The notes beneath the pieces were generated by a model. That model saw nothing but the letters and a program-made list of their open reading frames with translations, ran no database searches and was not told the DNA's origin. From Dehalococcoidia bacterium (lineage in GTDB: Bacteria; Chloroflexota; Dehalococcoidia; Lucifugimonadales; Lucifugimonadaceae), in contig CBDCPN010000019.1 of NCBI GenBank assembly GCA_965220275.1, positions 89,036 to 153,035 of the forward strand: 64,000 nucleotides of DNA. The letters are read 5' to 3'. The position numbers were made by a program, and so were the translations under genes. Positions 8,737 through 41,063 of the stretch are shown in pieces (position 1 is the first letter of the stretch; each line of letters starts with the position of its first letter).

Positions 8737-8827
8737 GCTTCCGCTCCGCGGTCGACATTGGAGTAACTATGCAAGGGCATTTTCACGCATAATGCCACGG
8801 TCGGGCGCAGCCAATATTGATAAAGGA

Positions 8828-19408: not shown

Positions 19409-19484
<76 letters not shown>

Positions 19485-19630: not shown

Positions 19631-20779
19631 ATGGTCGAGTGGCTTGGGATTGAGCACCTGTTCGAGCTTTCCACGGGAGATAAGGTCGCCGCCCTATTCA
19701 CCCCCCTCATAATCTTCATCGCCCTCTCGATCGCGACGGTGCTCCTGCCCGGCAAGTGGGTCCCCGGATACGCCACCGACGAAAGAACCGGCGAGCCCCG
19801 CAGGTACCGGCTCAACGGCCTCCTCGTCTTCGTCATCGCCAATCTCATCTGGGGCTTCGAGGTCATCCCAGGTCTGGGGCGCGATTGGTTCTACCGCACT
19901 TCGCTCTACGCAGTCGCCGGCGGCACCGGCTTCGCAGTGCTCTTCACGGCCATCGCCGTCTACACCCAGCCGAAGACCAGGGACCGCAACCCCTTTGTCG
20001 ACTTCTACGTGGGCCGCGTCCAGGAGATCCGCTTCTTCAACGACCGCCTCGACCTCAAGATGACCTTTTACGTTGTGGGCAGCACGATGCTCGGCATCAA
20101 TGCCATGTCGGGCGCGGCCTGGCACTACGAGCAGTTCAGCCCCACCAACGAAGTCAACCCCGGCGTCTTCGTCTACGCCGCCATTTTCACCTTCTACGTG
20201 TTCGACGACCACATCTTCGAGCGCGTCCGGCTCTACACCTATGACCTCATCCACGAGCGGATGGGCTTCAAGATGTTCTGGGGCGACAACATCGCCTACG
20301 GCTGGCTCTACATCCTCCCCCTGTACGGCATGGCCGCCTACCCCGACCCCGGCTTCTCGACCGCCTGGACCTACGTCTGGATCATCGGCGCCTCCGCCCT
20401 GTTCCTTGTCGGATGGGGCATAGCCCGGGGCGCCAACATCCAGAAGTACACCTTCAAGCGCTGGCCTGAACGCAAGTTCCTCGGGATCATCGAGCCCCGC
20501 TACATCCAGGCCGGCGACCGCAAGATCCTGACCAGCGGTTTCTGGGGCGTCGCCCGCCACTTCAACTACATGGGCGAGTTCCTCTTCGCCGTGGCGGTGG
20601 GCCTCTCCTTCGGATATTTTGGCGTCGCCTGGTCGTGGGCCTACCTGGCCTTCGCCGTCTGGTTGTTCACCTCGCGCCAGCGGCAGGACGACGTGGCCTG
20701 CGCCGAGAAGTACGGCCAGGAGAAGTGGGCCGAGTACCAGGAGAAGGTGCCGTACCGCATCATCCCCGGCATCTATTGA
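19631..20779 (+). CDS. ERG4/ERG24-family sterol reductase homologue (polytopic membrane NADPH reductase)
   Basis: 382-aa multi-TM protein. The C-terminus SGFWGVARHFNYMGEFLF ... SRQRQDDVACAEKYGQEKWAEYQEKVPYRIIPGIY matches the sterol reductase signature (..R..RD...C..KYG..W..Y...VPYR..P.IY), with a one-residue insertion. Confidence 0.8.
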   Translation: MVEWLGIEHLFELSTGDKVAALFTPLIIFIALSIATVLLPGKWVPGYATDERTGEPRRYRLNGLLVFVIANLIWGFEVIPGLGRDWFYRTSLYAVAGGTGFAVLFTAIAVYTQPKTRDRNPFVDFYVGRVQEIRFFNDRLDLKMTFYVVGSTMLGINAMSGAAWHYEQFSPTNEVNPGVFVYAAIFTFYVFDDHIFERVRLYTYDLIHERMGFKMFWGDNIAYGWLYILPLYGMAAYPDPGFSTAWTYVWIIGASALFLVGWGIARGANIQKYTFKRWPERKFLGIIEPRYIQAGDRKILTSGFWGVARHFNYMGEFLFAVAVGLSFGYFGVAWSWAYLAFAVWLFTSRQRQDDVACAEKYGQEKWAEYQEKVPYRIIPGIY

Positions 20780-31500: not shown

Positions 31501-32805
31501 TGGCCGACCGTCTCAGGTCGAGCGCCACTGGCTGGTGTAAACGCGTTTGGTCTTTCCGGAGCAAACGCGCACGTACTGGTCGAAGGCTATGGACCACCTG
31601 AGGCTGAGGCCGAAATGAGTAACGGCGCCCGTTTACCAATTGGTAGTCCACTGGCAATTCCGGCTTCACTCGCGGAATCGGTTAACGATGATTCCAGGTC
31701 CGCGGAAGGAATGGCGGCTCGTGCCACCCGTCTGTTGCCGCTATCGGGCAAGTCAGAAGGCGCGCTTCGTGATCTCGCGGGTAGGTACTTGTCATGGCTA
31801 GGAGGAAATTCAGAGGAATTGCGTCTTGAAGGCGCTGCTGCCGACTCGGCCCTTGCAGACATGGCCTGGACAGCCGGAGAGGGACGGAGTCATTTCGAAT
31901 TCCGGTCGGGCCTCGTGTTCCGTGATGCTGCCCATTTGCAAGCAAAACTGGAAGCCCTCGCTGAAGCCGTCAAACCCTCGCAGACGACGATTCAAACGGC
32001 CGCGAAAGTGGCTTTTCTCTACGGAGGCCAGGGCGGCCGGTGGAAGGAAACTGCAGAGACCCTGTACTTGGCGGAACCTGTGGTGCGCGAAGTATTGGAT
32101 CGTTGCGATCGACTGTCACGCGACGAGATGGACTTTTCCCTGCTGGAGGCAATGTTCGGCCAACCCGACGACTCCGGGATTCCTGCCGACCTGGCCTGGC
32201 AGGCGCCGGCCGTCTATGCGTTCGAATGCGCGCTCACTGAACTTTGGGCAGGAGTGGGGGTACGGCCCACAGTGGTTTTGGGCCGCGGTACCGGTGAGAT
32301 CGCGGCGGCACAGGCGGCCGGAGTCCTAACTCTGGAAGATGGGCTGCGGGTCGCGTTGCAAGTGGGCAGGCCCGAATCGTCACTACCGACGATAGACGCG
32401 TTGCCGCCGGCCCTCACGTGGGTCAGCAGCGCAACCGGGCGCGTATTGCAACCGGACGAAAAGCTGGACCAGGACCACTGGAGAAACCTAGCTCAGCCGA
32501 CACAGCACTTCAGCCAGTGCATCCAGACGTTGTCTGAGTTGCACGTGGACGCGATCGTGGAGGTCGGAACCCAGGGTCTCCGTTCAGACGTAACGCCCCC
32601 TCGACCGGAGTCTCGCGAAAACGGGCGAAAACCGGTCTTGATTGAATCCACGTTTGGCAACGGCTACGGAGGTTTCGTGAAAGCCGTGGGGGCAGCATAT
32701 GAAGCCGGACTGTCGATTTCTTTCAAGGGGTTATTCGCCGGTGAGACGCGGCGGCGAGTTTCGTTGCCTGCATATCCGTTCCAGCGAAAGCGGTTCTGGA
32801 TCTAG
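22507..32805 (+). CDS. Type I polyketide synthase, 3432 aa: KS-AT-DH-cMT-(psiKR)-ER-KR-ACP-KS-AT0. It has no C-terminal ACP or TE.
   Basis: All domain motifs were read from the translation. KS1: DTACSSS(C187), EAHGTGT(H322), NIGHLE(H362). AT1: GHSLGE(S672), AYHS. DH: HRVYGRVVMP(H985), DFGP, LLDGCFQ. cMT: ILEVGAGTGSGT. ER: HTASGGVGLAAVQLA. KR: TGGMGGIG, WPK, FSS, but NHAAAN. ACP: LGMDSL(S2535). KS2: DLACASS(C2773), EAHAVGS(H2908), NIGHVE(H2948). AT2 has GRGTGE in place of GHSxGE. Confidence 0.95.
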   Translation: MKMDERLGSQSGEPIAIVGMACRFPGAPDVDAFWRLLERGENAITEGVPGSGVGRIGEFYSESDIQNDASRFGAFIDGIDQFDAEFFRISPVEAQLLDPQQRLMLETSWQALEDAGIDPERLKGSRSGVYIGISNMDYRFINMESSQTSEPAANLYTVSGTSLNTAAGRVAFALGLEGPAMAVDTACSSSLVAIHQSVSALQRGEANLILAGGVQVILSGRLTEFRANARMLSPDGQCKAFDASANGFVRGEGCGLVVLKRLSDAEADGDRIWSVILGSALNQDGTSTGLTVPNERAQAGVIADALDRAGVAPSEVDYLEAHGTGTEVGDPIELNAAAAVYGEGRNPDRPLLVGSVKTNIGHLEPTAGVAGLMKTVLSIQNRQIPKHLHFRDPNPRLDWDRLPVKIASELTEWPARPDRPPRAGISAYGWSGTNAHVIVEGYGEPANGSNAGRVPSRPVGIARAVSAPLQDSPSRGESNGVCIGRPARLLPLSAKSNEALQELSGHYLSWLDGGTGEFSQNGSVAGPDLADMAWTAGEGRSHFDFRAGVVFRDIGSLRANLAELAASDDPPEIRKASKVAFAYTGQGVQWLGMGEALYQSEPVARAVLDRCDQLMREERGASLLDVMFGRPEAAGDLDEPAWTQPAVYALECALTALWASVGIRPDVVVGHSLGEIAAAHTAGVFSLEDGLRFACTRGELLGSLPRAGAMAAVFAPASRVSEAVDEWNEAHAGADICVAVDNGMHQVVSGPKEEVHAFSEHLEASAVNVTRLRPSPAYHSPLVEPALDDLESFFSHITINPPALSLISNMTGGVMGPDEAQDGPYWRRHAREPVAFRDCVATLAELGVDAVVELGPHRVLGPLVSMNWPEDAGNAQPPVVLQSLLRPSFDGSEPERADAFVQAVAGAYEAGLPVSFAGLFAGETRRRVGLPGYPFQRRRHWVKLSGRRHRADAHPLLGVRHESPRGEMMFETEMSPFDPDWLDDHRVYGRVVMPGAVYGAMAASVSLADGTGPAVVEDLQLHNPLVFPEQDEESESDPPTRRMQLVLDPSENNRPRHFEVFSKGETEEAWTLHAEGSLASNAARSGSQQETDLEALKAGLQRQDLRAYYQAKASTGIDFGPRLLSLEALWGRSGEAVGDVVLQDTGEGIGSWVHPLLLDGCFQVLSAARDLAGMGSGATYLPFAWERLSVNGPLPERLVCHARMREVGGAAGSEPASSEQPETLTGDLWFYDSEGTALGELSGFIVKRATRAALLSASAGLQDMLYETVWRESPLLDRLQPADALAAPSTVATATGTFGDYLAREGVSPEERSALLDDLERLSRAYALAAMDRLGWERRPGATVDPESLREQLKVLPEHSILLERILRLMADAGILDRVGGNYLVKIGSGDPLPDNTLADPDAFNDQLTVQHPHGSVELGLLRRSGGALAPVLQGDTDPLSILFPREGPGIADYYFTAPASRATNQLLGDAVASAVANWPEDRPLRILEVGAGTGSGTSVVLPELQPGNFTYMFTDISAGFFAEAENRFGDSEAPLEYRALDIERNPCDQGFDLHAYDLVIAVNVLHATRNLGETLANCRELMAPSGKLIAVENLRGRGWQDMVFGQLDGWWRFSDEYRPDHALASPQVWRRALADTGFVESAVLGGEAGTDERPMGSGVVLAEGPPEVTWPAGAWVVAGGGDNVPGELASALADKNQAVVLAVAAAETGRTAAPAGIQCVTVDPDDRNSWLDLLNGLPEDLPLRGVVHCFATGGHGVQATTQEMAEDVRTAGQSALTLAQALQDADVSLDSGFWLVTEGAQALERDYLRESAGNLAGASLWGLGRVVAREAAHLCPRMLDLDPADKTQTDHLVNELMFPDPETQVAYRDGHRLAARLVRSGSARTRLDLPEEQTWRLMPDAEGALEGLHAEPTQQPDLQPGQVRVEVEAAGVNFLDVLLSLGVVESADPRLGEEFCGRVVEAAPDVTEFAAGDRVIGLAFGTFGPEVVTQADLVAPAPEGMSSAALATIPSAFVSAGLSFEEADLKPGDRVLIHTASGGVGLAAVQLAQAAGLEVFATASAPKRPYLRSLGIEHVFDSRTTGFGREILEATGGVGVNMVLNSLTGPGFIEDSLSCLADGGSFVEMGRRDIWNAEEMAAARPDVFYYVLELDWLKKNDPARPGSVLRDVMQMMTSSALKPLAHTRWPIAEAGAAMGFMQSARHIGKNVLVMPPVTGGQLRPDRTYLVTGGMGGIGIEVAKWLADLGAGVIVLNGRRPPDDEAEQAIEALRQRGADVRVELADMTDPEAVDAMLARIDAEMPDIAGVIHSVGVLSDAALGNQTWERFEQVLWPKILGAWHLHRATLDRDLDLFVLFSSITGVLGNSGQGNHAAANTFLDQLAEYRRSLGLPGQAIAWGAWSGLGEAEEQRERIERQLESSGTGWISPNQGLDAFDQVVRRDLTSCMVAAVDWPVFTEKFEDAPKFLEDLITSGSESEEDDAESSGPVDLMSEFRQSAPADRQGVVVAFVQQELQAVMRMPSVPAPTVGFFELGMDSLVAVEFRNRLNRSLAGDYVVSNTAVFDYPTVDDLARHLSEELNQVAGDESPEAIQDSPARATVPPVSRDPQEDAIAIVGMACRFPGAPDLSAYWDLLEAGRSAITDGRQDRGTWDGLTGDPAAKDAAYRRGGFVEGLDQFDARFFRIAPIEARMMDPQQRMLLETSWQALEDAAINPDRLRGSRTGVYAGVGSAEYRDLIAAGGQEDSYLGTAASVAVGRVAFALGLEGPAMPVDLACASSLAAVHQAAEALRRSEVDLAIAGGVNATLSQGFTRFHKDIGMLSASGHCNAFDAAADGYIRGEGCGVVVLKRLGDAEADGDRIWGLIRGSAVNQNGASAALTVPNGPAQERVMEAARTQAGVNPSDVDYLEAHAVGSQLGDPIELNAVASVYGRERDSQRPLLIGTVKSNIGHVEWAAGIAGFIKTVLSMKKGVIPESLHFKTPNPNVNWEQVPVKVTSGRTVWPTVSGRAPLAGVNAFGLSGANAHVLVEGYGPPEAEAEMSNGARLPIGSPLAIPASLAESVNDDSRSAEGMAARATRLLPLSGKSEGALRDLAGRYLSWLGGNSEELRLEGAAADSALADMAWTAGEGRSHFEFRSGLVFRDAAHLQAKLEALAEAVKPSQTTIQTAAKVAFLYGGQGGRWKETAETLYLAEPVVREVLDRCDRLSRDEMDFSLLEAMFGQPDDSGIPADLAWQAPAVYAFECALTELWAGVGVRPTVVLGRGTGEIAAAQAAGVLTLEDGLRVALQVGRPESSLPTIDALPPALTWVSSATGRVLQPDEKLDQDHWRNLAQPTQHFSQCIQTLSELHVDAIVEVGTQGLRSDVTPPRPESRENGRKPVLIESTFGNGYGGFVKAVGAAYEAGLSISFKGLFAGETRRRVSLPAYPFQRKRFWI
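22543..23832 (+). other. PKS domain: ketosynthase 1 (Cys-His-His triad intact)
   Basis: Runs from EPIAIVGMACRFPG to NAHVIVEGY. The Cys codon is at 23065-23067. Confidence 0.9.
24238..25095 (+). other. PKS domain: acyltransferase 1 (active; GHSLGE suggests malonyl-type, but the specificity motif is the atypical AYHS)
   Basis: FAYTGQG, GHSLGE (Ser codon 24520-24522), AYHS and VELGPH. The post-AT linker YPFQRRRHW follows. Confidence 0.85.
25366..26275 (+). other. PKS domain: dehydratase (motifs intact)
   Basis: HPLLG, HxxxGxxxxP (His codon 25459-25461), a G.DFGP motif and LLDGCFQ. Confidence 0.85.
26848..27430 (+). other. PKS domain: C-methyltransferase (SAM-dependent)
   Basis: LRILEVGAGTGSGT (motif I), followed by DLVIAVNVLHAT and GKLIAVE. 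It sits between DH and ER, as in methylating highly reducing PKSs. Confidence 0.85.
28190..29141 (+). other. PKS domain: enoylreductase (MDR type, NADPH motif intact)
   Basis: GQVRVEVEAAGVNFLD and HTASGGVGLAAVQLAQAAG. Confidence 0.85.
29172..29715 (+). other. PKS domain: ketoreductase catalytic subdomain. Lys and Ser are present, but the catalytic Tyr position is His.
   Basis: TYLVTGGMGGIGIEVAKWL, LSD (B-type-like), WPK and FSS. GQGNHAAAN has codon CAC at 29614-29616, where canonical KRs have Y in the YAAAN motif. Confidence 0.8.
30004..30237 (+). other. PKS domain: integrated ACP
   Basis: FFELGMDSLVAVEFRNRL. The phosphopantetheine Ser codon is at 30109-30111. Confidence 0.88.
30328..31590 (+). 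other. PKS domain: ketosynthase 2 (Cys-His-His retained)
   Basis: Runs from DAIAIVGMACRFPG to NAHVLVEGYG. The Cys codon is at 30823-30825. Flanking linkers are near-duplicates of those around KS1. Confidence 0.88.
32005..32580 (+). other. PKS domain: degenerate, truncated acyltransferase (AT0)
   Basis: GRGTGE (32281-32298) aligns to GHSxGE, so the nucleophile Ser is replaced by Gly and the His by Arg. There is no xAxHS motif. The domain is about 95 aa shorter than AT1. The post-AT linker YPFQRKRFWI is retained as the protein C-terminus. Confidence 0.75.
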
Positions 32806-32911
32806 GTACGAGCCCCAACGTGAAGGCGTCGGCCGGTTACTTACCTGCACAATCGTTTGCTATGCTAGTCTTCGTTTACCAAAGCCAATCATAATCGGAG
32901 GATTTGCGCAC

Positions 32912-33142
32912 ATGGCCTCGACCGAAGAAAGAGTCCGAAAGCTCGTTAGTGACAACCTGGAAGTAGACTTGCCGTCGGATCTGAACGTCTCCCTTGGTGA
33001 CCTCGGTGTGTCATCCATGGACATCGTCTCATTCGGGAGAGTCGTAGCTAAAGATTTCGACATCTCATTCACTGCCGAGGACTGTGCCAACGTGAATACC
33101 GTTCAGGGTTTGGTAGAGCACATCGACGGTCAGGCTGCCTGA
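32912..33142 (+). CDS. Discrete acyl carrier protein (ACP-A)
   Basis: 76 aa with an LGVSSMD phosphopantetheine attachment motif. GGAGGA lies 9 nt upstream of the ATG at 32912. The ORF-track extension back to 32699 overlaps the end of the PKS gene and was discarded. Confidence 0.85.
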   Translation: MASTEERVRKLVSDNLEVDLPSDLNVSLGDLGVSSMDIVSFGRVVAKDFDISFTAEDCANVNTVQGLVEHIDGQAA

Positions 33143-33172
33143 CTCAGCCCTCCACCGGGCGCCCGACATACA

Positions 33173-33883
33173 GTGTCCGCAGACACCGCCGGGTGCTGGT
33201 GGAGCCCGTTCAGGACGGTTGGCAACGCCACCGTCATACATGTTGATCTGAACCGTCACGCCGCCCGTGAATCACAGGGCGTGGCGTGGTTGGACGACGA
33301 AGAAGTCTCCCGGTCGCGGCTTTTCAGGCATGCTGGCGCGCGGCGCCAGTTCGTGTTGTGCCGCGCCGCGCTGCGCGCCATACTCTGCGGCAAACTCGGC
33401 TGCAAAAACGACCGGCTCTCGTTCGGCCTAACCGGCCACGGCAAGCCTTTCGCCGTGGTCCGGGGGAGCAAGGCGCCGGTCAGTTTCAGTGTGAGTCACA
33501 GCGGCAAGCACGGGCTGATCGCTATTGCGCCGGGAGGGCGACTCGGCGTGGATGTCGAAGAGCCCGTCGCCCGTCGCGATTTGGACGGGCTGATTGCAAC
33601 TCTGTTTGGGCCCGATGAACGTGCGGAACTGGATGCGTTAAGCGGAGAAAGTAAACTCCGCCTGTTTTTGGATTACTGGACAATCAAAGAGGCTCTGATC
33701 AAGGCGCTGGGTACCGGCCACAGAGTGGACGTGTCCAAGTTCCAGGTACCTGCAAAAATGCGGGATCGGGACCCGATCGGCATTTTCCGGTTCTCGCACT
33801 TACCAGACGTTCCCTGGCGAGTAGAGAATCTCGGCAATGAAGACTTCGCCGCTGCACTTGCCGTTGAAGTAAAACCTGTATGA
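33173..33883 (+). CDS. Sfp-type 4'-phosphopantetheinyl transferase
   Basis: Motifs GKPF, FSVSHSG, GVDVE and WTIKEALIKALG. The start codon (GTG at 33173) is uncertain. Confidence 0.85.
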   Translation: MSADTAGCWWSPFRTVGNATVIHVDLNRHAARESQGVAWLDDEEVSRSRLFRHAGARRQFVLCRAALRAILCGKLGCKNDRLSFGLTGHGKPFAVVRGSKAPVSFSVSHSGKHGLIAIAPGGRLGVDVEEPVARRDLDGLIATLFGPDERAELDALSGESKLRLFLDYWTIKEALIKALGTGHRVDVSKFQVPAKMRDRDPIGIFRFSHLPDVPWRVENLGNEDFAAALAVEVKPV

Positions 33884-33899
33884 TCGTCTTCTGCATTAG

Positions 33900-34856
33900 A
33901 TGAGTCGGCAGTCTCCTTCCCGCGTCGCAAGGAAGATCAGCAAATTCTCCATGTCTCTAGACCCCGCTTGGGAACTGCCCAAGCCTCTTTCCACGCATGA
34001 CGTTCAGGTGGACGACGACACCGTCATCGTCCTGAGGCGCCACGGCAATCCGGACGGCCCGCGACTCGTCATGAGCCACGGAAACGGCCTTGCGATCGAC
34101 CTCTATTACCCCTTCTGGTCCAGGTTGACCGGCGAATTCGACCTGATTGTCTACGACCAACGAAACCATGGCTGGAACGAACTGAGCATGCTCGAAAACC
34201 ACAACGTCCCCACCCTGGTCGCCGATCATGACGCCGTTCTCGAAGCAATAGACGACAAATACGGCCTGAAGCCTCAAGTTGGGGTTTTCCACTCTGTATC
34301 CGCCCTGGTGTCGCTCCTGTCGCCTGTTCGGGGAGTTCACTACTCTGCCCTCGTACTGTTCGACCCCCCTCTTTGCAAGCCCGGAAGAAGCCACAAGGAG
34401 TTCGAGGCCGCGGCCGTTCGCGCCGCGGGGTTCGCTCGCAACAGGACCGAGAAATTCCGAAGCAGGGAGCAGTTTTCTGACTTTCTTCCGTTCCTGCCTC
34501 CCTTCCAACGCTTTGCGCCCGGCGTCTTTGAACTCATGGCCGGTACGACGCTTCGTGAGCGCAACGGCGAACAAGGCTACGAACTGCGTTGCCCCGCCGC
34601 GTACGAAGCTCAGATGATCGACTACGCCAGCGTCTTCGGAGTGGCGGTGAACTTCGACACGCTGACGTGCCCGGTGAAGGTAATCGGAGCCGATCCCACC
34701 CTGCCCTATTCGTATCTACCTACGCTGGATATGACTGACATCCTGAGCGTGAACTACGATTTTCTGCCCGAAGCGACTCACTTTCTCCAACTCGAGAGGC
34801 CGGAAGCGTGCGCGGAGGTTATGCGGGAGTTCCTCAACCGGATCGAGTTCGGTTGA
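33900..34856 (+). CDS. Alpha/beta-fold hydrolase (candidate chain-release or acyl-transfer enzyme)
   Basis: An HGNG oxyanion-type motif early in the protein. The nucleophile-elbow region is VFHSVSA (atypical: Ser retained, flanking Gly residues not). The C-terminal EATHFLQLERPE is typical of the fold. Confidence 0.7.
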   Translation: MSRQSPSRVARKISKFSMSLDPAWELPKPLSTHDVQVDDDTVIVLRRHGNPDGPRLVMSHGNGLAIDLYYPFWSRLTGEFDLIVYDQRNHGWNELSMLENHNVPTLVADHDAVLEAIDDKYGLKPQVGVFHSVSALVSLLSPVRGVHYSALVLFDPPLCKPGRSHKEFEAAAVRAAGFARNRTEKFRSREQFSDFLPFLPPFQRFAPGVFELMAGTTLRERNGEQGYELRCPAAYEAQMIDYASVFGVAVNFDTLTCPVKVIGADPTLPYSYLPTLDMTDILSVNYDFLPEATHFLQLERPEACAEVMREFLNRIEFG

Positions 34857-34916: not shown

Positions 34917-36344
34917 GTGAATAACGCCAGCGAATTTTTTGGGGATTCGTGGTCAATGGCAACCGGCCGGAAAAAGACGAAGTTGCGCCGCATAGCCATA
35001 GTTGGAGGCGGCATTTCCGGGTTGGGGGCGGCATGGGCTATGAACCGGCACCCGGACCGTTTTGACTTCCGCCTGTATGAGGCCCAGTCTCGAATCGGCG
35101 GGAACGCAGTAACGGCGGATATGCCGCAAGATGACGGCTCTTCAATCCCGTTCGACATTTCCGTCACCGCCTGCATCCCATCCGTATATCACCACATCCT
35201 CCTCCTGATGCAGCGGTACGGCATCGATCTGGTCGACACCAGGTTCAGCTACAGCGTGAAGTACCGCGGCCAGGTATACGCCCACGACTTCGACTCTGAG
35301 ATCAGGGAACAGCTACAACCAGAGATCGCAAAGTTCCAGCGGATCTTGAAACGCCTGCACTGGTTCGGCGCTCTGAGCCGGTCCCGGTCAAAGTGCGTGA
35401 ACGCCCTCAACCCGCTCAACTACGTGAGCATGGGCACCGTCCTGAACCTCGCAGGACTATCCGGGGATTTTCGCTACAAGGTGCTGAAGCCCATGTTCGT
35501 CAATTTCCTGATGGCGACCAATGTGTTCGACATGCCGGCCGCCCTTTTCGCCAGGTATCTCGAATTCTTCGACATTGAGACCGCCACGACGATGCACACC
35601 TGGGACAGGGGAACACGGAACATCTACGAACACTTGTCCGCCGACTTCAGGGACAAGATATACCTCAACCGTCCTGTACGAAAAGTGTATCGACGGCCTT
35701 TCGGGGTTGAGATCGAAGACGAAAATGGCGTTAAGGAAACCTATGACGACGTGATATTTGCGTGTAACGCAAATCAGACCTTGATGATCCTGGACAAGCC
35801 CACGTTATTGGAGCGATACACACTCTCCTCGGTCCGTTATGAAAGTGAACTACACAACCACACGCTTGTTCACTGGGACTCGTCAGTACTGCCGGATAAC
35901 GAAGTGAGGCCGTTGGAAACGCGTAGCAATCACATAGAACAATACGGCGTGAGACCAGACAACTATGAAATCACCTACATCATGCACAACCAGCAGCCAT
36001 GGGTCAGCCGGTCAGACAAGCCGTGCCTGGTAACTTACAACCCCATAAGTGAGATAGATCGCGGAAAAGTCGTCGGGAGGTGGTGGTTCCAACACATCGT
36101 GCATGACGTTCGCCATGTCGCACTGCTGATTCCTATGTTCCGGTTCATCCAGGGCAAGCGCCGGACCTGGCACTGCGGCGCTCACACGCTGGTCAACAGC
36201 CAGGAGACATGTTTCGTAAGCGGGCTCGCAGCAGCGAAGCAGATCGGCGCTGATTATCCGTTCGAAGACCCCGAGGCGAGGCGGTCCTTCAACTACTACG
36301 GGGGCATCATGTTTGGGTGGCGCTTCAAAAAGGCCAAGGGCTGA
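34917..36344 (+). CDS. FAD/NAD(P)-binding oxidoreductase, amine-oxidase/phytoene-desaturase-like (COG2907 type)
   Basis: RIAIVGGGISGLGAAWAM...YEAQSRIGGN dinucleotide-binding motif. 475 aa. The start may instead be the ATG at 34956. Confidence 0.75.
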   Translation: MNNASEFFGDSWSMATGRKKTKLRRIAIVGGGISGLGAAWAMNRHPDRFDFRLYEAQSRIGGNAVTADMPQDDGSSIPFDISVTACIPSVYHHILLLMQRYGIDLVDTRFSYSVKYRGQVYAHDFDSEIREQLQPEIAKFQRILKRLHWFGALSRSRSKCVNALNPLNYVSMGTVLNLAGLSGDFRYKVLKPMFVNFLMATNVFDMPAALFARYLEFFDIETATTMHTWDRGTRNIYEHLSADFRDKIYLNRPVRKVYRRPFGVEIEDENGVKETYDDVIFACNANQTLMILDKPTLLERYTLSSVRYESELHNHTLVHWDSSVLPDNEVRPLETRSNHIEQYGVRPDNYEITYIMHNQQPWVSRSDKPCLVTYNPISEIDRGKVVGRWWFQHIVHDVRHVALLIPMFRFIQGKRRTWHCGAHTLVNSQETCFVSGLAAAKQIGADYPFEDPEARRSFNYYGGIMFGWRFKKAKG

Positions 36345-36613
36345 ATACAGCGGCCCACCCTGCGGCCCGTGGTGAACCTCAGACCGCATCTTTGTATCGC
36401 GGAATACGTGCAGTCGTGCCGCCTTGCATCGCGAATGAACGAACACTCACACTCCCGTATACGCGGTGAAGCGGACGCGACGTTGACGCGCGACGACGGC
36501 GAACAGGCATACCCTGCGCGTTTCCCGAAATTCATCCACCCGTCAGTCAAAACTCCATAAGTTACAATTAATTCAGTTACGGCACGCGGGCTCGTTCCAC
36601 GCATTGAGACCGA

Positions 36614-38668
36614 TTGGCCAGGCGCGGAGAGATGGCACTTTCAACACTTCCAACAACCGATGCGCCAGATGAGTCAACCCATCAGCTGAGCCTGCCAGAA
36701 GAACTCATCCTTTCGCTCCTCAACGAGGAGAGCGGCTACTTCCACCAGGTGCCTGGCTGGAATTTGAACTGCGCCGTCATCGGCGCCGTCCTTGCGGAAC
36801 TCTCGCTTAGGTCGCACATAGACACGGACATGGAGGCCCTTTTCCTCCTGAACCGGACGGAAACGGGTGATCCAGCACTGGATCCTATCCTCGCCGAAAT
36901 CACGAGCGGTCCTGCTCGGCGTAACGCCCAATTCTGGATCGAAAAGCTTGCCCCCCATGCTGAGTCGATCATTGATTTGACTTTGCAGCGGTTAGTAGAC
37001 CTTAACGTTCTGGAATATCACGACGGCGATTTCTACACGCTGGCACGCGGCGCCGGGCAGTTGGGACCGCCAGACGGCTCCCAACCGGGCGCCGGCGCAG
37101 AGTTTGTCAAGACGCGGATCAGCAGGGCCATTTTCGAGAACGAGATCCCTCACCCTCGCGACGTAATCATCATCTGCCTGATCAACACATGCGATGTGTT
37201 TCGGTTTATGTTCCAACTGGACGAAGAATCTGAGGAACGCATCGAGTTCATTTGCAAGATGGACCTGATCGGCCGGTCGATCGCCGCCGCTGTCGCCGAA
37301 AACCTCGCCGGTCCGTTGCTTCGACATTCGGCATTGTCTAAAGAAATTCCGGCTGTCTCCCTGCGCAAGTTGGCGCTCCATCCACATATACGCAGCGGCA
37401 ACGTTCCCGCGCTGTTCGCGGACCTCGCGCATGAGTACGGACCGGTGTTCCAGGTCCGTCCACCTTTTGCCAAGCCCATGATCATCCTGGCCGGGTTGGA
37501 GACCAATCGCTGGGTGCACCGGCGAGGGCGCATGTACCTGAGAACCAGGGACTATTTTGCTGACTTCGAAGCTGTCTACGGTGCGTCGGGGGTTTTGCCA
37601 TCCCTGGACGGCGCCGATCACTTCCGCCTCCGTAAGTCTCTGGGACCGGCCTACTCGCGGGGGCGGCTCGAAGGGCAATTGGACCAACTCTACGCCCAAT
37701 TCCGCGGACATGTCGCCGACTGGAAGGTTGGCGACAACTTAAATGCGACCAGCATGTGCAGGCAGATTGTCAATGCTCAGCTTTCGCCGCTCTTCATCAG
37801 CGTGGATTCTCAGGACATCTTCGAAGACCTGACGAAGTACAAGGAACGGGCGCTCAGCACGCACGTATTGAAGATCCTGCCCAAATTCATGCTCAAGACC
37901 CCGGGCATGAGACGCCGCGCGAAGTCGATCGATACATTGCTTGAACGCGTCCAGAACGTCCACACGTCCGCCCAACGTTCCGAAACAAGTCGTGACCTGG
38001 CGGACGACTTGCTGAGCCTGCACGCGAGCGATCCGCAATTCGTTCCCGAGTCGAATTTGCGATTCGCGCTTTCGGCCGCGCTGATCGCCAGCGTGTACCT
38101 CGGCGACGCCCTCAGCTTCGCGGTGTACGCGATGGCGGCGCAGCCTGAGATCTACCGCAAGATCCAGGATGAAGCTGACGCCCTGTTCGACAACGGAGAT
38201 CCGGCCGGCAATGACTTCAAACCTGCCAATATTGACGTCACGCACCGCTTTCTCATAGAGACCTTGCGGATGTACCCGATCGTCCCGATGTCCGTCCGGA
38301 ACGTGATGAATTCTTGCGTGGTTGAGGGCTACGAAATACCCGTCGGATCGCGGATCTTCATCGCCCAATCCGCTTCACATTACATGGACGATATCTTCCC
38401 TGACCCCCACACGTTTGATATCGACCGCTATCTGCCGCCGCGCAATGAGCACCTCAGCCCGGGATATGCGCCGTACGGGCTTGGCACCCACATGTGCCTC
38501 GGCTCCCGGTGGATGCAACTGCAAATGGCCATCAACGTACTCATGCTCGCCCACTATTTCAATGTCGAAGTCAGCCCTTCAAACTACAAGCTCAAGATCA
38601 ATCCAATACCGTCCATGAAACCGAGCAAGAAGCTGAGGTTCCGCATCGCGGAGCGGAGACGGAATTAG
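36614..38668 (+). CDS. Fusion protein: N-terminal GPP34/GOLPH3-like domain plus C-terminal cytochrome P450
   Basis: N-terminal part: LSLPEELILSLLNEESG, AVIGAVLAELSLRS and TGDPALDP match the bacterial GPP34 family pattern. C-terminal part: ExxR (ETLR), PDPHTFDIDRY, and heme loop PYGLGTHMCLG (Cys codon 38495-38497). The start is uncertain (TTG at 36614 or ATG at 36632). Confidence 0.85.
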   Translation: MARRGEMALSTLPTTDAPDESTHQLSLPEELILSLLNEESGYFHQVPGWNLNCAVIGAVLAELSLRSHIDTDMEALFLLNRTETGDPALDPILAEITSGPARRNAQFWIEKLAPHAESIIDLTLQRLVDLNVLEYHDGDFYTLARGAGQLGPPDGSQPGAGAEFVKTRISRAIFENEIPHPRDVIIICLINTCDVFRFMFQLDEESEERIEFICKMDLIGRSIAAAVAENLAGPLLRHSALSKEIPAVSLRKLALHPHIRSGNVPALFADLAHEYGPVFQVRPPFAKPMIILAGLETNRWVHRRGRMYLRTRDYFADFEAVYGASGVLPSLDGADHFRLRKSLGPAYSRGRLEGQLDQLYAQFRGHVADWKVGDNLNATSMCRQIVNAQLSPLFISVDSQDIFEDLTKYKERALSTHVLKILPKFMLKTPGMRRRAKSIDTLLERVQNVHTSAQRSETSRDLADDLLSLHASDPQFVPESNLRFALSAALIASVYLGDALSFAVYAMAAQPEIYRKIQDEADALFDNGDPAGNDFKPANIDVTHRFLIETLRMYPIVPMSVRNVMNSCVVEGYEIPVGSRIFIAQSASHYMDDIFPDPHTFDIDRYLPPRNEHLSPGYAPYGLGTHMCLGSRWMQLQMAINVLMLAHYFNVEVSPSNYKLKINPIPSMKPSKKLRFRIAERRRN
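36686..37300 (+). other. GPP34/GOLPH3-like domain of the P450 fusion (approximate borders)
   Basis: See the parent CDS. The pattern LPEEL.L..L.eesG ... GAVLAELsLr ... TGDP.LD ... W is the hallmark of GPP34-family proteins. Confidence 0.7.
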
Positions 38669-38711: not shown

Positions 38712-39749
38712 CTAATGGGGCTTGCGGGCCAGGAAACAATATAACGGCGTGAAGACCCCGGCCCTGCCGCCCGCAACATAGGCGTTGGCGGTACGGTCCA
38801 GCAATCTGACAACGTCTGCGGAGCCATTAGGGAACACCCCCAGTTTTTCGGCCAGCCTGGTCGCGCCAATGATCGCCTTGCGGCCCAGCGGAATCCTGCG
38901 AAGTGCGTTGCCCAGCGTTCCGTGCCTGGTCTCCATGGGCTGGTACCACGGCGTGGTCGGGCCGTTCTCCCCTATCGCCCGGTCAATCCCCTCGATCACC
39001 TCAAATCCCACCGATTCGAGCGCCCGGTTCACCTCGCCCGTTGTCGCAATGTCCTTGAGGGCGATGCCTTGCATCAGATCACGCTTGATGACGCGGTGCC
39101 GGTTATCGTCGGGATCGAACTTGTCCGTCATGCACATTTCCTGACCCCAGAAGAGGGCTCCCGGTTTCAGCACGCGGTAGATTTCGGCAAACGCTGCCAT
39201 CTTGTCCGGTGCATGGCAAGTCGATTCGATCGCGTAACCCCTGTCGAACGTGTCGTCCGTGACGGCGTCCATGTCCGTGAAGCTGCACGCGAGGTAATCG
39301 ATCATGTGGTCGAGCCCCGCTTCGGCATTCAACGATTTCGCCTTTTCCAGCTGGACTTCACTGTTGTTTACCCCGACGACCCTGACACCGGACTCTCGGG
39401 CCACACGACGCATCGGGCCACCGATCCCGCATCCGACGTCCACTACTGTCATGCCCTTCCGCAACTCCAGCTTGCCGATCATCAGCCGCTGATGCCGAAT
39501 CTTGGATTCTGCCAGGGTCTCCCCGGGCGATAACGGCGCAAAGTGCAGGGACTCGCCCCAACCGAACACCATGAAATCGCTGCAGAGGTCGTAATACTCC
39601 TTGACGGTTTCGGTGTGGTCATAGCCTCTCGCACCACCATCTTCCGCGGACGCTCTCTCTATCCAACCGTCGTATCGTTGGACTCGACCGGAAACGTCCG
39701 ACCCGCGGTATGCGGCCTTCAGGCCGTTGTACAGTTCACGAATTTGCAT
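38712..39749 (-). CDS. Sterol 24-C-methyltransferase (ERG6/SMT)-like SAM-dependent methyltransferase
   Basis: Aligns by eye along its whole length with yeast ERG6. EYYDLCSDFMVFGWGESLHF matches FYEYGWGSSFHF. VVDVGCGIGGP matches LDVGCGVGGP. YAIESTCHAP matches YAIEATCHAP. The C-terminal tail is VAGGRAGVFTPLYCFLARKP. Confidence 0.85.
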   Translation of the reverse strand: MQIRELYNGLKAAYRGSDVSGRVQRYDGWIERASAEDGGARGYDHTETVKEYYDLCSDFMVFGWGESLHFAPLSPGETLAESKIRHQRLMIGKLELRKGMTVVDVGCGIGGPMRRVARESGVRVVGVNNSEVQLEKAKSLNAEAGLDHMIDYLACSFTDMDAVTDDTFDRGYAIESTCHAPDKMAAFAEIYRVLKPGALFWGQEMCMTDKFDPDDNRHRVIKRDLMQGIALKDIATTGEVNRALESVGFEVIEGIDRAIGENGPTTPWYQPMETRHGTLGNALRRIPLGRKAIIGATRLAEKLGVFPNGSADVVRLLDRTANAYVAGGRAGVFTPLYCFLARKPH

Positions 39750-39989: not shown

Positions 39990-41063
39990 TCACGCCGTCC
40001 CGTTGGCGTCGCTACGGCCTGGACCATCCCCAATCCGGGGGTCAGGATAAAACTGCGTGCAATAGGCGCGGAAGGGCATGATCTCGCCATCGGAACGGCA
40101 CAGACGCGGACGGGACTCGTAGCGCTTGCTGCGCCAGATAATCTCATCCTGCAGGACATCTGCCTTTTGCATGATTGAGATGAACTTGTTCATCACGGGC
40201 GCGCGTAGCCCGACTGGCAGAAACCCCAACCCTGCTACCCACCGTCTGGGTCCCCGTATCTCCTTGACCTGCGAGACCAGGTTCATGTCGATGAGTGTGC
40301 CATCGACGGGCGTCGCCAGGACCCATAGGCGCATGTCCATCCCGATGGACCGCTCCCTGATCTCTACGAACGAGTAGCCAAGGCCATGGATATGGGCGGT
40401 GGCTGCGACGTCAAAAGTGAGCGACGCAATTTTAGCGATCTTCTGCGTTCTTCTGAAATTGAAGCTGCTCAGGAGGTAGGCGCCGTCCACCGACACTTCA
40501 CTATCCCGGTCCACGCTGTCGTAGCCGTGGACGTAGCGCAAATGGCCCACGTCCACCGAGTTTTCTGTCGTCTCCTGGGGATGTCCCGGAAAGCGGAGAG
40601 TTTTGATCTCGATGTCGCACCACCCCTCCTGGTCGGGAGGGTCTTCCGGCAGGTCCCACTGCGGCTCCCTGCCGTCCATCCCCCACCAGGCAAAGATGAG
40701 ACCGCCAATTTCCCGCGTCGGGAAAACCCTCAACCTCGCTGTCCTGGGCGGTTCGGAGTAAGGCGTGGCGACGCACTGGCCAACCGTGTCGAACTCGTAG
40801 CCGTGGAAGGGACAGACGAGCCGGCCCTGGCATACCTTGCCGCCCGCGTCCGGCCCCATGTCGGCGCCCAGGTGCGGGCAATAGGCCCCGGCCACGCAGA
40901 CTTTTCCGCCATCGTCGATCCAGATGACGGTGTTTTCGCCCATCCAGGTCTTCTGCATGAGCTTGGCCTTCAACAAAGCCTTTCGGCTTTCGACGAAGAA
41001 CCAGCCCTCTGGAAACGGGGATAACGTCTTTGCGTACGTAAATGTCCTACGTCCCGTGGACAT
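39990..41063 (-). CDS. Rieske [2Fe-2S] non-heme-iron oxygenase, KshA/Neverland-like
   Basis: Rieske motif CPHLGADM-x-CPFHGYEF and mononuclear iron motif ENSVDVGHLRYVH (EN..D..H....H). 357 aa. No partner reductase or ferredoxin is adjacent. Confidence 0.85.
   Translation of the reverse strand: MSTGRRTFTYAKTLSPFPEGWFFVESRKALLKAKLMQKTWMGENTVIWIDDGGKVCVAGAYCPHLGADMGPDAGGKVCQGRLVCPFHGYEFDTVGQCVATPYSEPPRTARLRVFPTREIGGLIFAWWGMDGREPQWDLPEDPPDQEGWCDIEIKTLRFPGHPQETTENSVDVGHLRYVHGYDSVDRDSEVSVDGAYLLSSFNFRRTQKIAKIASLTFDVAATAHIHGLGYSFVEIRERSIGMDMRLWVLATPVDGTLIDMNLVSQVKEIRGPRRWVAGLGFLPVGLRAPVMNKFISIMQKADVLQDEIIWRSKRYESRPRLCRSDGEIMPFRAYCTQFYPDPRIGDGPGRSDANGTA

What the first reader, a model, noticed from the sequence alone, without database searches (positions are those of the whole stretch)
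38712..39749. Bacterial ERG6-like sterol C-24 methyltransferase with Phe at the position of the second Tyr in the YEYGWG motif
The 345-aa protein aligns by eye with yeast ERG6 along its full length. The matches are region I (FMVFGWGESLHF against FYEYGWGSSFHF), the SAM motif (VDVGCGIGGP), YAIESTCHAP, and the SMT-specific C-terminal domain ending in ..FTPLYCFLARKP. SMTs are classically eukaryotic. Bacterial homologues have been reported, mainly from uncultured bacteria, and they matter for interpreting 24-alkyl sterane biomarkers.

In region I the residue aligned with the second Tyr of yeast YEYGWG is Phe. As I recall, the Tyr-to-Phe change at that position in yeast lets the enzyme perform a second methyl transfer. 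That could hint at 24-ethyl or 24-propyl products here. This last point is inference from memory.
Basis: partly seen in the sequence, partly recalled or inferred. Interest (0 to 1): 0.8.

Follow-up and report, generated by a model that had tools for sequence, protein, structure and literature searches.

The report
Sponge-symbiont variant of sterol methyltransferase
The gene is a real ERG6-type sterol methyltransferase homologue, but it belongs to a distinct clade found so far only in sponge-associated bacteria, whose sterol pocket is remodelled, which is paired with a sponge-symbiont-only GPP34–P450 gene, and whose one tested close relative did not methylate the standard sterols, so its true substrate is open.

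Summary
The ORF at 38712-39749 (-) encodes 345 aa, 37% identical to yeast ERG6 over 329 aa. It has the SAM motif, Region III and a Sterol_MT_C domain (54.8 bits against a cutoff of 21.7).

- The yeast gain-of-function change is Y81F, the first Tyr of YEYGWG. Here position 81 is Met and position 83 is Phe.
- Position 249 is Ile. Gly249 is required for propylation, and G249I in a propylating enzyme gave only C28 sterols.
- Two of the 25 residues invariant in functional SMTs differ (T78S, F89L), and Tyr223 is Gln.

The M81/L89/Q223/I249 signature marks a separate clade with 100% NJ bootstrap. The clade is under purifying selection (dN/dS about 0.17). Relatives occur in 482 GTDB species across at least six phyla at 72-86% identity, and every metagenome hit I could trace comes from a sponge.

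The gene is usually paired tail-to-tail with the GPP34-P450 fusion, reported as exclusive to sponge symbionts. A KshA-like Rieske oxygenase, an FAD oxidoreductase and a sterol-sensing-domain MMPL transporter are often nearby.

A 72%-identical orthologue appears to be Brown et al.'s "A. aerophoba 10000835 2 of 2", which was inactive on desmosterol and 24-methylenecholesterol.

Best reading: a neofunctionalised SMT-family enzyme acting on a sterol-type lipid other than those two substrates.

The parts
38712..39749 (-). SMT/ERG6-family SAM-dependent methyltransferase, 345 aa, of the M81/L89/Q223/I249 sponge-symbiont clade
   Evidence: ORF. Pfam class I MT plus Sterol_MT_C at 54.8 bits. 37% identity to ERG6. 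Clade signature and 100% NJ bootstrap. dN/dS about 0.17.
39540..39578 (-). Region I (aa 58-70, DFMVFGWGESLHF). In yeast numbering: M81, V82, F83, G84-W85-G86, L89, H90, F91
   Evidence: Alignment to ERG6. Across family members position 81 is Met in 117/118, and position 83 is F in 100, W in 9, Y in 6 and L in 3.
38718..38900 (-). Sterol_MT_C domain (aa 284-344)
   Evidence: Pfam PF08498, 54.8 bits against a cutoff of 21.7. G333, L341, G352, F357 and P359 are all kept.
36614..38668 (+). GPP34 (GOLPH3-like) plus cytochrome P450 fusion, convergent with the methyltransferase. The two stop codons are 43 bp apart.
   Evidence: Pfam GPP34 85 bits and p450 130 bits. Closest solved structures are bacterial CYP51 at E about 8e-24. 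It is not a CYP51 orthologue. Present in 67/95 loci with full flanks, and convergent within 300 bp in 55. Also next to the 40%-identical clade member in L145. This architecture is reported as exclusive to sponge symbionts (PMC11706023).
39990..41063 (-). Rieske [2Fe-2S] oxygenase with a KshA-type C-terminal domain, upstream of and co-directional with the methyltransferase
   Evidence: Pfam Rieske plus KshA_C. Best PDB matches are 3-ketosteroid 9alpha-hydroxylase KshA at E = 2e-20. Only 32 bits to the SdmA NCBIfam model against a cutoff of 600. Present in 60/95 loci.
34917..36344 (+). FAD-dependent amine-oxidase-family oxidoreductase upstream of the P450
   Evidence: Pfam Amino_oxidase. Best PDB matches are LkcE at E = 7e-26 and a fatty-acid isomerase-like 'putative aminooxidase'. 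Present in 38/95 loci.
19631..20779 (+). ERG4/ERG24-family sterol C=C reductase homologue. It may belong to an extended cassette, separated here by the PKS block.
   Evidence: Pfam ERG4_ERG24 at 129 bits. Best PDB match is a Delta14-sterol reductase at E = 1e-32. In L032, L043, L050, L053 and L080 the orthologue (59-62% identity) lies beside the FAD oxidoreductase, 6-8 kb from the methyltransferase.

Best explanation
The gene encodes a catalytically intact, divergent member of the sterol methyltransferase (ERG6/SMT) family. It belongs to a clade known so far only from sponge-associated bacteria, which has spread among phyla by horizontal transfer.

It works as one half of a conserved gene pair with the GPP34-P450 fusion. 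A KshA-like Rieske oxygenase, an FAD oxidoreductase, an ERG4/24-type reductase and a sterol-sensing-domain MMPL transporter often accompany the pair.

The likely chemistry is that of the family. The methyl group of SAM is transferred to a nucleophilic carbon (an isolated C=C or an enol) of a sterol- or triterpenoid-type lipid. That lipid is either made by the symbiont or taken from the sponge.

The residues that canonical SMTs use to hold the side-chain carbocation and fix the outcome are replaced: Y81 to M, F89 to L, Y223 to Q and position 249 to I. The native substrate or the position methylated therefore probably differs from the desmosterol / 24-methylenecholesterol C-24/C-28 reactions. 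One possibility is a sterol first modified by the partner P450 or Rieske enzyme. Another is a different olefin such as Delta25.

Shown: family membership, intact motifs, purifying selection, the clade signature, the synteny, the sponge-only sources of the hits and the cross-phylum similarity.

Inferred: the substrate class, the altered regiochemistry and the roles of the partner enzymes.
For: Family and integrity:
- Sterol_MT_C plus a class I MT fold.
- 37% identity to ERG6 over 329 aa.
- 23 of the 25 residues invariant in functional SMTs are retained.
- Median dN/dS is 0.17 over 78 pairs.

Distinct clade:
- M81, L89, Q223 and I249 are each present in at least 75 of 79 family members.
- About 100 other 50%-identity SMT representatives almost all carry Y81, F89 and Y223.
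- The clade, including P0125, P0127 and P0129, has 100% NJ bootstrap support.

Coupling:
- GPP34-P450 is present in 67/95 loci and is tail-to-tail within 300 bp in 55. Rieske is present in 60, MMPL/SSD in 54 and the FAD oxidoreductase in 38.
- The pair persists even at 40% methyltransferase identity (L145).

Sterol link:
- The partners' closest characterised relatives are CYP51, KshA and a Delta14-sterol reductase.
- The transporter resembles HpnN/BstA/Patched-type sterol-sensing-domain proteins.
- In a sponge Nitrospira, the pair abuts a complete sterol cluster of SMT, SMO-OSC, CYP51, ERG24, SdmA and SdmB.

Not canonical:
- The Nitrospira orthologue is 72% identical to the query.
- It matches Brown et al.'s gene JGIcombinedJ30088_100008359, '2 of 2', by gene order and by identity to ERG6.
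- That gene is listed under 'No activity'.

Precedent: nematode STRM-1, an SMT-family enzyme lacking the Region I aromatics, methylates C-4 of 3-keto sterols (PMC6997595).
Against: - No member of the clade has a demonstrated activity, so the substrate class rests on homology and gene neighbourhood.
- The single negative assay could reflect poor expression in E. coli. Eleven of the SMTs tested by that laboratory were inactive, and some of those have no obvious sequence deviation.
- The equivalence of the assayed protein with L143 SMT2 is inferred. It was not verified residue by residue.
- No OSC lies in this 64-kb window. Among 142 loci, only the Nitrospira genotype has one within 10 kb.
- 25 of 95 loci have none of the partner genes nearby.
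- The NJ tree is unrooted and its deeper nodes are unresolved.
Confidence: 0.5

Rival explanations
1. It is an ordinary sterol C-24 methyltransferase. It makes 24-methyl(ene) sterols from Delta24 sterols of the symbiont or the host. The inactive orthologue simply failed to express or fold in E. coli.
For: - Full-length similarity to ERG6 and a Sterol_MT_C domain.
- 23 of the 25 functional-SMT residues are retained, including GWG, H90, F91, the SAM motif, Y192, E195 and G217.
- An ERG4/24-type reductase that could reduce a 24(28)-methylene lies in the window and beside the cassette in five other loci.
- Sponge-associated Dehalococcoidia are reported to carry OSC-CYP51-ERG24 clusters elsewhere in their genomes (PMC9531527).
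- Several canonical-looking SMTs were also inactive in the same assay system.
Against: - Y81, F89 and Y223 are near-universal in about 100 SMT representatives but are replaced clade-wide here.
- F89 and T78 belong to the set invariant in all functional SMTs.
- The orthologue was reported inactive on both standard substrates.
- In several genomes this type sits a few kb from a canonical SMT paralogue, which argues against redundancy.
- Ethyl or propyl products are disfavoured by Ile249.
Confidence: 0.27
2. It methylates a non-sterol lipid. Candidates are an unsaturated fatty-acyl or polyketide chain from the neighbouring PKS, with the FAD oxidoreductase acting on the product. An acyclic or other terpenoid of the sponge holobiont is also possible.
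For: - In this window the gene lies 6 kb from a 3432-aa PKS with a PPTase and a hydrolase.
- It also scores against the CMAS (mycolic acid cyclopropane synthetase) Pfam family at 66 bits.
- The FAD enzyme's PDB relatives are LkcE and a fatty-acid isomerase-like protein.
- From memory, SMT-like enzymes of Botryococcus methylate squalene and botryococcene, so the fold is not restricted to sterols.
Against: - The PKS is near the gene in only 3 of 95 loci, all but one being close relatives of the window. That adjacency is therefore lineage-specific.
- The conserved partners (CYP51-like P450, KshA-like Rieske, ERG4/24, sterol-sensing-domain transporter) point to polycyclic triterpenoids.
- The pair is embedded in a sterol cluster in Nitrospira.
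Confidence: 0.13
3. Together with GPP34-P450 it is a host-directed effector. The GPP34 domain targets PI4P-rich host membranes, as proposed for phagosome evasion, and the two enzymes remodel host membrane sterols there rather than bacterial lipids.
For: - GPP34-P450 is reported as exclusive to sponge symbionts and was proposed to modulate phagocytosis (PMC11706023).
- The pairing with this methyltransferase is tight and ancient.
- All traced hits come from sponges, and the genes have spread horizontally across phyla.
Against: - No secretion signal or secretion-system linkage was examined or seen.
- P450 and Rieske enzymes need bacterial redox partners, and SAM is cytoplasmic.
- The associated MMPL transporter suggests lipid movement across the bacterial envelope instead.
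Confidence: 0.07
4. It is a decaying or non-catalytic SMT paralogue.
For: One orthologue is reported inactive. Residues otherwise invariant in functional SMTs are lost.
Against: - dN/dS is about 0.17.
- The SAM motif, E195, G217 and the C-terminal domain are fully conserved in 79/79 sequences.
- Relatives occur in 482 species representatives.
- The clade-specific substitutions are themselves conserved.
Confidence: 0.03

Closest known systems
'Aplysina aerophoba meta JGIcombinedJ30088_10000835 2 of 2' (gene ..._100008359) of Brown et al. 2023 / Brown & Welander 2025, represented here by L143 8109-9143 in a sponge Nitrospira MAG
   Same: - 72% identical over the full length.
- Same M81/L89/Q223/I249 signature.
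- Same tail-to-tail partner, with the GPP34-P450 genes 74% identical, and a KshA-type Rieske gene upstream of the methyltransferase on the same strand.
   Different: - It has Tyr at position 83 rather than Phe.
- It sits beside a full de novo sterol cluster, and its Rieske neighbour is reduced to a 97-aa remnant.
- It was reported inactive on desmosterol and 24-methylenecholesterol.
- Its identity with the assayed protein is inferred from gene order and from the 42.36% / about 35% identities to ERG6.
Functional bacterial sterol C-24 methyltransferases (Brown et al. 2023), for example the propylating A. aerophoba symbiont SMT '1 of 2' (L143 10001-11032) and the Chlamydiae SMT
   Same: - Same family and domain pair.
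- Bacterial and sponge-associated.
- Similar distance to ERG6. Those enzymes are 35-42% identical to ERG6 and the query is 37%.
   Different: - Only about 43% identical to the query.
- Those enzymes keep an aromatic residue at 81, plus F89 and Y223, and the propylating ones have G249.
- The query clade separates from them with 100% NJ bootstrap support.
Saccharomyces cerevisiae ERG6 (zymosterol C-24 methyltransferase)
   Same: Collinear alignment at 37% identity. Regions II and III and the C-terminal domain are conserved.
   Different: - Region I reads FMVFGWGESLHF against FYEYGWGSSFHF.
- Region IV reads GALFWGQ against GGTFAVY.
- Position 249 is Ile against Asp.
- The N-terminal 20 or so residues are absent.
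Caenorhabditis elegans STRM-1 sterol C4alpha-methyltransferase (PMC6997595)
   Same: An SMT-family enzyme whose Region I lacks the signature aromatic residues and whose regiochemistry has changed. It is a precedent for neofunctionalisation within the family.
   Different: It is eukaryotic. No sequence comparison was made here. It acts on 3-keto sterols at C-4, and nothing shows that this clade does the same.
GPP34_L (GPP34 + cytochrome P450) proteins of sponge symbionts (PMC11706023)
   Same: The neighbour at 36614-38668 has exactly this architecture. Both gene families have been found only in sponge-associated bacteria, and both occur across several phyla.
   Different: That paper proposes a PI4P-binding, phagocytosis-modulating role. 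It does not mention sterols or methyltransferases at all (0 occurrences). The linkage to an SMT-like gene is not described there.

Membership tests
Sterol methyltransferase (ERG6/SMT) family | Class I SAM-dependent methyltransferase fold with the Region II motif D125-x-G-x-G-x-x-G-P133 | tested here: met
   VDVGCGIGGP is present. Pfam Methyltransf_11/25/31 hits. D125, G127, G129, G132 and P133 are conserved in 79/79 family members.
Sterol methyltransferase (ERG6/SMT) family | SMT-specific C-terminal domain (Pfam Sterol_MT_C, PF08498) | tested here: met
   54.8 bits against a gathering score of 21.7 at aa 284-344. G333, L341, G352, F357 and P359 are present.
Sterol methyltransferase (ERG6/SMT) family | Region I aromatic signature Y81-E-(Y/F/W)83-G-W-G-x-x-F89-H-F, thought to stabilise the side-chain carbocation | tested here: not met
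   The query reads M81-V-F83-G-W-G-E-S-L89-H-F. G84, W85, G86, H90 and F91 are kept, but Y81 and F89 are replaced clade-wide. About 100 other SMT representatives almost all have Y81 and F89.
Sterol methyltransferase (ERG6/SMT) family | Region III (Y192...E195) and Region IV (G217; Y223) | tested here: inconclusive
   Y192, E195 and G217 are conserved. Y223 is Gln in 76/79 family members.
Sterol methyltransferase (ERG6/SMT) family | The 25 residues invariant among all experimentally functional SMTs (Brown & Welander 2025) | tested here: not met
   23 of 25 are present. T78 is S here (S, G or N across the family) and F89 is L.
Sterol methyltransferase (ERG6/SMT) family | SAM-dependent methylation of a Delta24 or Delta24(28) sterol | not testable with these tools
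   There is no assay here. The inferred orthologue, 72% identical, is listed as inactive on desmosterol and 24-methylenecholesterol.
Sterol methyltransferase (ERG6/SMT) family | Phylogenetic placement among SMTs rather than other methyltransferases | tested here: met
   The 150 best hits among 1.84 billion representatives are SMT-like. The named ones include rice cycloartenol C-24 methyltransferase and 'sterol methyltransferase' of Ca. Poriferisocius. Within the family the query forms its own clade with 100% NJ bootstrap, and its position relative to eukaryotic SMTs is unresolved.
Ethylating / propylating bacterial SMTs | Gly at position 249, which is necessary for C30 products. Only A, S, N or T at this position still allow C29. 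| tested here: not met
   Ile249 in the query and in 75/79 family members. The G249I mutant of the Chlamydiae SMT made only C28 sterols.
Ethylating / propylating bacterial SMTs | Phe at position 81 and/or 83 of Region I | tested here: met
   F83 is present and M81 is not Phe. The authors state this feature is not sufficient on its own.
De novo bacterial sterol biosynthesis cluster (OSC-CYP51-ERG24-SdmAB with SMT) | Co-location with oxidosqualene cyclase and the C-14 / C-4 demethylation genes | tested here: not met
   There is no OSC, CYP51, SdmA or SdmB orthologue in the 64-kb window. Among the 142 family loci found by the two collection scans, only L088 and L089 have them; both carry the Nitrospira cluster also seen in L143. 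The rest of the genome could not be searched.
SMT-like / GPP34-P450 cassette of sponge symbionts (defined here) | M81-type methyltransferase immediately adjacent to a GPP34+P450 fusion gene, commonly with a KshA-like Rieske gene and an FAD oxidoreductase gene | tested here: met
   In the window, P450 at 36614-38668 (+) converges on the methyltransferase at 38712-39749 (-). The Rieske gene is at 39990-41063 (-) and the FAD oxidoreductase at 34917-36344 (+). The same arrangement is seen in most loci.
SdmA (bacterial sterol C-4 demethylase Rieske oxygenase), considered for the neighbour at 39990-41063 | Score above the NCBIfam equivalog cutoff, or orthology to an SdmA from a sterol cluster | tested here: not met
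   32 bits against a cutoff of 600. It carries a KshA_C domain rather than a VanA_C domain. No tblastn match to the Nitrospira SdmA at E <= 1e-15 covering at least half of it.

The most novel reading that the evidence does not exclude
The M81/L89/Q223/I249 clade is the missing 'unconventional' sterol side-chain methyltransferase of sponge holobionts. It would alkylate a position other than C-24/C-28, for example C-26/C-27 of Delta25 sterols. That chemistry underlies the aplysterol- and 26-methylstigmastane-type skeletons. It would work together with the GPP34-P450 and Rieske enzymes.

If so, bacterial symbionts rather than the sponge would supply part of the chemistry behind demosponge sterane biomarkers. 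The GPP34-P450 'symbiosis factor' would then be a sterol-tailoring enzyme. PMC12541326 states that it is still not established whether the relevant SMTs reside in the sponge, its symbionts or both.
Probability: 0.12. Interest if true: 0.9.

Novelty: new variant of a known kind. Interest (0 to 1): 0.56.

Why it matters
Bacterial SMTs are already known and are central to the dispute over 24-isopropylcholestane and 26-methylstigmastane as the oldest animal biomarkers.

This gene represents a very widespread SMT subfamily, with relatives in 482 species representatives, that has so far turned up only in sponge-associated bacteria. KEGG- or Pfam-based surveys count it as 'SMT1/ERG6'. Yet its sterol-pocket residues are changed, and its one assayed relative was inactive. 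Counts of 'bacterial C-24 methyltransferases' in sponge microbiomes may therefore be inflated by a paralogue with a different, unknown job.

The conserved pairing with the sponge-symbiont-exclusive GPP34-P450 fusion gives a concrete, testable biochemical context for a proposed symbiosis factor: tailoring or transport of a sterol-like lipid. It also nominates a candidate for sponge-type sterol alkylations whose enzymes are unknown.

Tried and rejected
Hypotheses tested and rejected:
- Methyltransferase as part of the adjacent PKS cluster. Rejected as the general explanation because the PKS is nearby in only 3/95 loci.
- Rieske neighbour as SdmA, and P450 as CYP51. Rejected.
- tRNA-Met at 19409-19484 as an island integration site. 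No att-like repeat of the tRNA was found elsewhere in the window.

Look-ups that gave nothing:
- Exact look-up of my recalled ERG6 sequence failed. I validated it instead against 32 numbered residues from the literature.
- Look-up of the window protein's own contig found nothing on record.
- I searched the supplements of both Brown papers for the motif strings, to see whether this clade appears in their alignment. The alignment is stored as an unreadable OCR table. I therefore rebuilt the propylating SMT from the OCR-damaged codon-optimised DNA, found the real protein (P0325, 94% identical despite the OCR errors) and recovered its contig.
- None of the other contigs named as 'no activity' (LXNJ01004423, LXNI01006544, LXNI01016685) appeared among the 62 metagenome loci. 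I cannot say whether they belong to this clade.

Not attempted:
- Structure prediction. The tool returns no coordinates, and no SMT structure exists in the PDB. The one entry named '24-sterol C-methyltransferase', 6f5z, matches only the methyltransferase core at E = 3e-7.
Full report
**1. The observation**

The minus-strand ORF at 38712-39749 starts with ATG and encodes 345 aa. A GAAGGG lies about 8 nt upstream of the start.

Pfam finds class I methyltransferase domains and, at aa 284-344, the SMT-specific Sterol_MT_C domain. It scores 54.8 bits against a gathering score of 21.7.

I recalled the yeast ERG6 sequence from memory. An exact look-up did not find it. It does carry the stated residue at all 32 numbered positions given by Brown & Welander 2025, so it is in register where it matters. 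BLASTP of the query against it gives 37% identity over 329 aa, E = 3e-75. Experimentally active bacterial SMTs fall in the same range, 35-42%.

**2. The Tyr-to-Phe argument**

In yeast numbering Region I is Y81-E-Y83-G-W-G. The mutation that lets ERG6 add a second methyl is Y81F, the first Tyr.

A December 2025 preprint gives the hint some support. Phe83 is native in a propylating Chlamydiae SMT, and F83Y lowered its C30 products from 27% to 4%.

The same study points the other way on three counts:
- Gly249 is necessary for propylation. Ten further substitutions at 249, including Ile, abolished C30. Only A, S, N and T kept C29. The query has Ile249.
- Of the 25 residues invariant in all functional SMTs, the query keeps 23. 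T78 is Ser and F89 is Leu.
- Tyr223, another position tied to product outcome in yeast, is Gln.

By the only published sequence rubric, a prediction of 24-ethyl or 24-propyl products is not supported.

**3. A distinct clade**

The query has over 1,700 homologues in the word-indexed search, and the best 120 are all 77-88% identical. In 79 family sequences, M81 occurs in 75, F83 in 72, L89 in 76, Q223 in 76 and I249 in 75. A wider census gives Met81 in 117/118, with position 83 as F in 100, W in 9, Y in 6 and L in 3. Met81 is therefore the hallmark of the clade, not Phe83.

An exhaustive HMMER scan of 1.84 billion 50%-identity representatives returned about 110 full-length SMT-like proteins. Nearly all carry Y81, F89 and Y223. 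Only the query's relatives (P0124, P0125, P0127, P0129, P0134, P0204) share Leu89 and, where that part of the protein is present, Gln223; Met81 is replaced by Thr in the deepest member, P0129.

In an NJ tree of 106 sequences over 326 columns with 200 bootstraps, the clade {family, P0125, P0127, P0129} has 100% support. Its relation to other SMTs is unresolved, with support of 18% or less.

Median dN/dS against 78 relatives is 0.17. The SAM motif, E195 and the C-terminal residues are invariant. The protein is therefore under selection as an enzyme.

**4. Where the clade lives**

The GTDB scan found relatives in 482 species representatives. The best 80 are mostly Dehalococcoidia/Chloroflexota MAGs. 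The closest is 86% identical and its flanking genes are up to 96% identical, so the window is from a Dehalococcoidia. Alphaproteobacteria, Acidimicrobiia and Thermodesulfobacteriota also appear. Dadabacteria and Nitrospira carry it as well.

In the metagenome collection of 241 million records, all 62 loci lie on contigs from sponge metagenomes, wherever I could identify the source:
- The LXNJ, LXNI, JGIcombinedJ30088 and Ga0209021/754/544 prefixes are named as Petrosia, Sarcotragus and Aplysina in Brown's papers.
- MKWU carries a 100%-identical copy of the Aplysina Nitrospira cluster.

The scan uses exact peptide patterns from the query, so it sees close relatives only.

Identity does not follow taxonomy. 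An Acidimicrobiales copy is closest to a Dehalococcoidia copy at 85%. Synonymous divergence between phyla is only 0.48-1.03. This indicates horizontal spread within sponge microbiomes.

**5. Gene neighbourhood**

In the window, the FAD oxidoreductase (34917-36344, +) and GPP34-P450 (36614-38668, +) converge on the methyltransferase. The two stop codons are 43 bp apart. A KshA-type Rieske oxygenase (39990-41063, -) lies upstream on the methyltransferase's strand.

Presence among the 95 related loci with at least 8 kb on both sides:

| Neighbour | Loci | Note |
|---|---|---|
| GPP34-P450 | 67 | tail-to-tail within 300 bp in 55 |
| KshA-like Rieske | 60 | |
| MMPL transporter, ~826 aa | 54 | sterol-sensing / Patched domains, HAE3/HpnN-like |
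| FAD oxidoreductase | 38 | |
| ERG4/ERG24 homologue | 5 | |
| Large PKS | 3 | |

The deepest clade member, P0129 at 40% identity, also sits next to a GPP34-P450. The pair is therefore old.

The partners' nearest characterised relatives are steroid enzymes:
- bacterial CYP51 for the P450, E about 8e-24
- KshA for the Rieske protein, E = 2e-20
- a Delta14-sterol reductase for the ERG4/24 homologue at 19631-20779, E = 1e-32

They are not orthologues of the biosynthetic CYP51 or SdmA.

The window holds no OSC. Only one genotype among the 142 loci has one within 10 kb. Sponge Dehalococcoidia are nonetheless reported to carry OSC-CYP51-ERG24 clusters elsewhere in their genomes (PMC9531527). The source of the sterol, symbiont or host, is therefore open.

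**6. Link to published experiments**

I rebuilt the propylating 'A. aerophoba 10000835 1 of 2' protein from OCR-damaged DNA in the preprint supplement. The real protein is P0325, 94% identical to my reconstruction. I then fetched its contig from a sponge Nitrospira MAG (L143).

The gene order there is: GPP34-P450, SMT2, a 97-aa KshA_C remnant, SMT1, SMO-OSC fusion, CYP51, ERG24, SdmA, SdmB, MMPL. This matches genes 9 and 11-16 of Brown et al.'s cluster.

SMT1 is 42.357% identical to ERG6, against their published 42.36%. SMT2 is 34.9% identical, against their 35.16% for gene 9. Their Supplementary Table 4 names gene 9 as '2 of 2'. The preprint's alignment figure lists '2 of 2' under 'No activity'. 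Their Fig. [quoted passage not shown]

SMT2 is 72% identical to the query and has M81, L89, Q223 and I249. Its P450 neighbour is 74% identical to the window's.

A member of this clade has therefore very probably been assayed and found inactive on the two standard substrates. Two caveats apply. The identity is inferred, and negative lysate assays are weak evidence. Several canonical-looking SMTs were also inactive in that system.

**7. Interpretation**

Membership of the SMT family is secure. Membership of the functional class 'sterol C-24 methyltransferase' is not. The Region I aromatic signature and the set of residues invariant in functional SMTs were tested and are not fully met, and the activity is untested here.

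The most economical reading is a neofunctionalised SMT paralogue working with GPP34-P450, and often the Rieske, FAD and ERG4/24 enzymes and an SSD transporter, on a sterol-type lipid. Three points support this:
- STRM-1 shows that loss of Region I aromatics can accompany a new methylation site within the family.
- Canonical SMT paralogues sit a few kb away in L012, L036, L038 and L143, which argues against redundancy.
- The paper describing GPP34-P450 as exclusive to sponge symbionts proposes a phagocytosis role and never mentions sterols or methyltransferases. This linkage appears to be undescribed in the literature I could search.

**8. Verdict**

- Observation: confirmed.
- Interpretation: partly supported.
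- Novelty: a new variant of a known kind.
- Interest: moderate to high for sponge-symbiosis and biomarker specialists. It does not come from the Phe83 argument. It comes from the clade's remodelled pocket, its sponge-only occurrence so far, its pairing with GPP34-P450, and the likelihood that it inflates 'bacterial SMT' counts while doing something else.

Noticed in passing
window 22507-32805 (+), with 33173-33883 and 33900-34856: A 3432-aa mono-modular type I PKS (KS-AT-DH-cMT-ER-KR-ACP followed by a second KS/AT) with a PPTase and an alpha/beta hydrolase. From memory, the architecture recalls the 'Sup' PKSs of sponge symbionts linked to methyl-branched fatty acids. It lies near the methyltransferase cassette only in L001, L026 and L006.
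   Followed up: partly
window 19409-19484 (+) and 19631-20779 (+): A tRNA-Met lies directly upstream of the ERG4/ERG24 homologue. In five other loci, ERG4/24 sits beside the FAD oxidoreductase. Here the PhyH and PKS block (21205-34856) therefore looks inserted between them. No att-like repeat of the tRNA was found in the window.
   Followed up: partly
window 53197-53850 (+): A 217-aa ORF matches the phospholipid Scramblase family (PF03803, 145 bits). As far as I recall this is a chiefly eukaryotic family, so it is another possible eukaryote-like gene in this symbiont.
   Followed up: no
L012 17223-18251 (-), L036 14438-15511 (-), L038 14423-15439 (-): Canonical SMT paralogues (Y81, Y83, F89, Y223, Gly249) lie 3.4-6.2 kb from the M81-type gene in the same cassette. 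Gly249 makes them candidates for multiple methylations, although they lack Phe at 81 and 83.
   Followed up: partly
L005 and L007 (both on CBDEGP010000002.1): Two M81-type copies lie about 110 kb apart on one Dehalococcoidia contig, neither with the usual partner genes nearby. 25 of the 95 loci with full flanks lack all partner genes.
   Followed up: no
L143 9236-9529 (-): A 97-aa KshA_C-only remnant sits between the two Nitrospira SMT genes. It is 54% identical to the window's Rieske protein, so the cassette's Rieske gene has decayed where the pair abuts a full sterol cluster.
   Followed up: partly
Dadabacteria proteins MXZ13762.1 (P0113) and MXZ13775.1 (P0298, a member of the P0135 cluster); both clusters list a 198-kb contig: A third kind of SMT-like paralogue, with Region I 'FCERGWG..IHF', has an accession number 13 above that of the M81-type protein in Ca. 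Dadabacteria. The two genes are therefore probably about 13 genes apart on the same contig. Sponge symbionts may carry several divergent SMT-like lineages.
   Followed up: no
window 34917-38668: The FAD oxidoreductase (GC 0.553) and GPP34-P450 (GC 0.577) are lower in GC than the rest of the window (about 0.61). This weakly fits horizontal acquisition. Cross-phylum dS for the methyltransferase is only 0.48-1.03.
   Followed up: partly
window 8609-9919 (+) and 54141-55193 (-): There are two phosphotriesterase-family (PF02126) genes. The window also holds three enolase-superfamily (MR_MLE) genes, at 18034-19131, 49767-50885 and 63189-63986.
   Followed up: no
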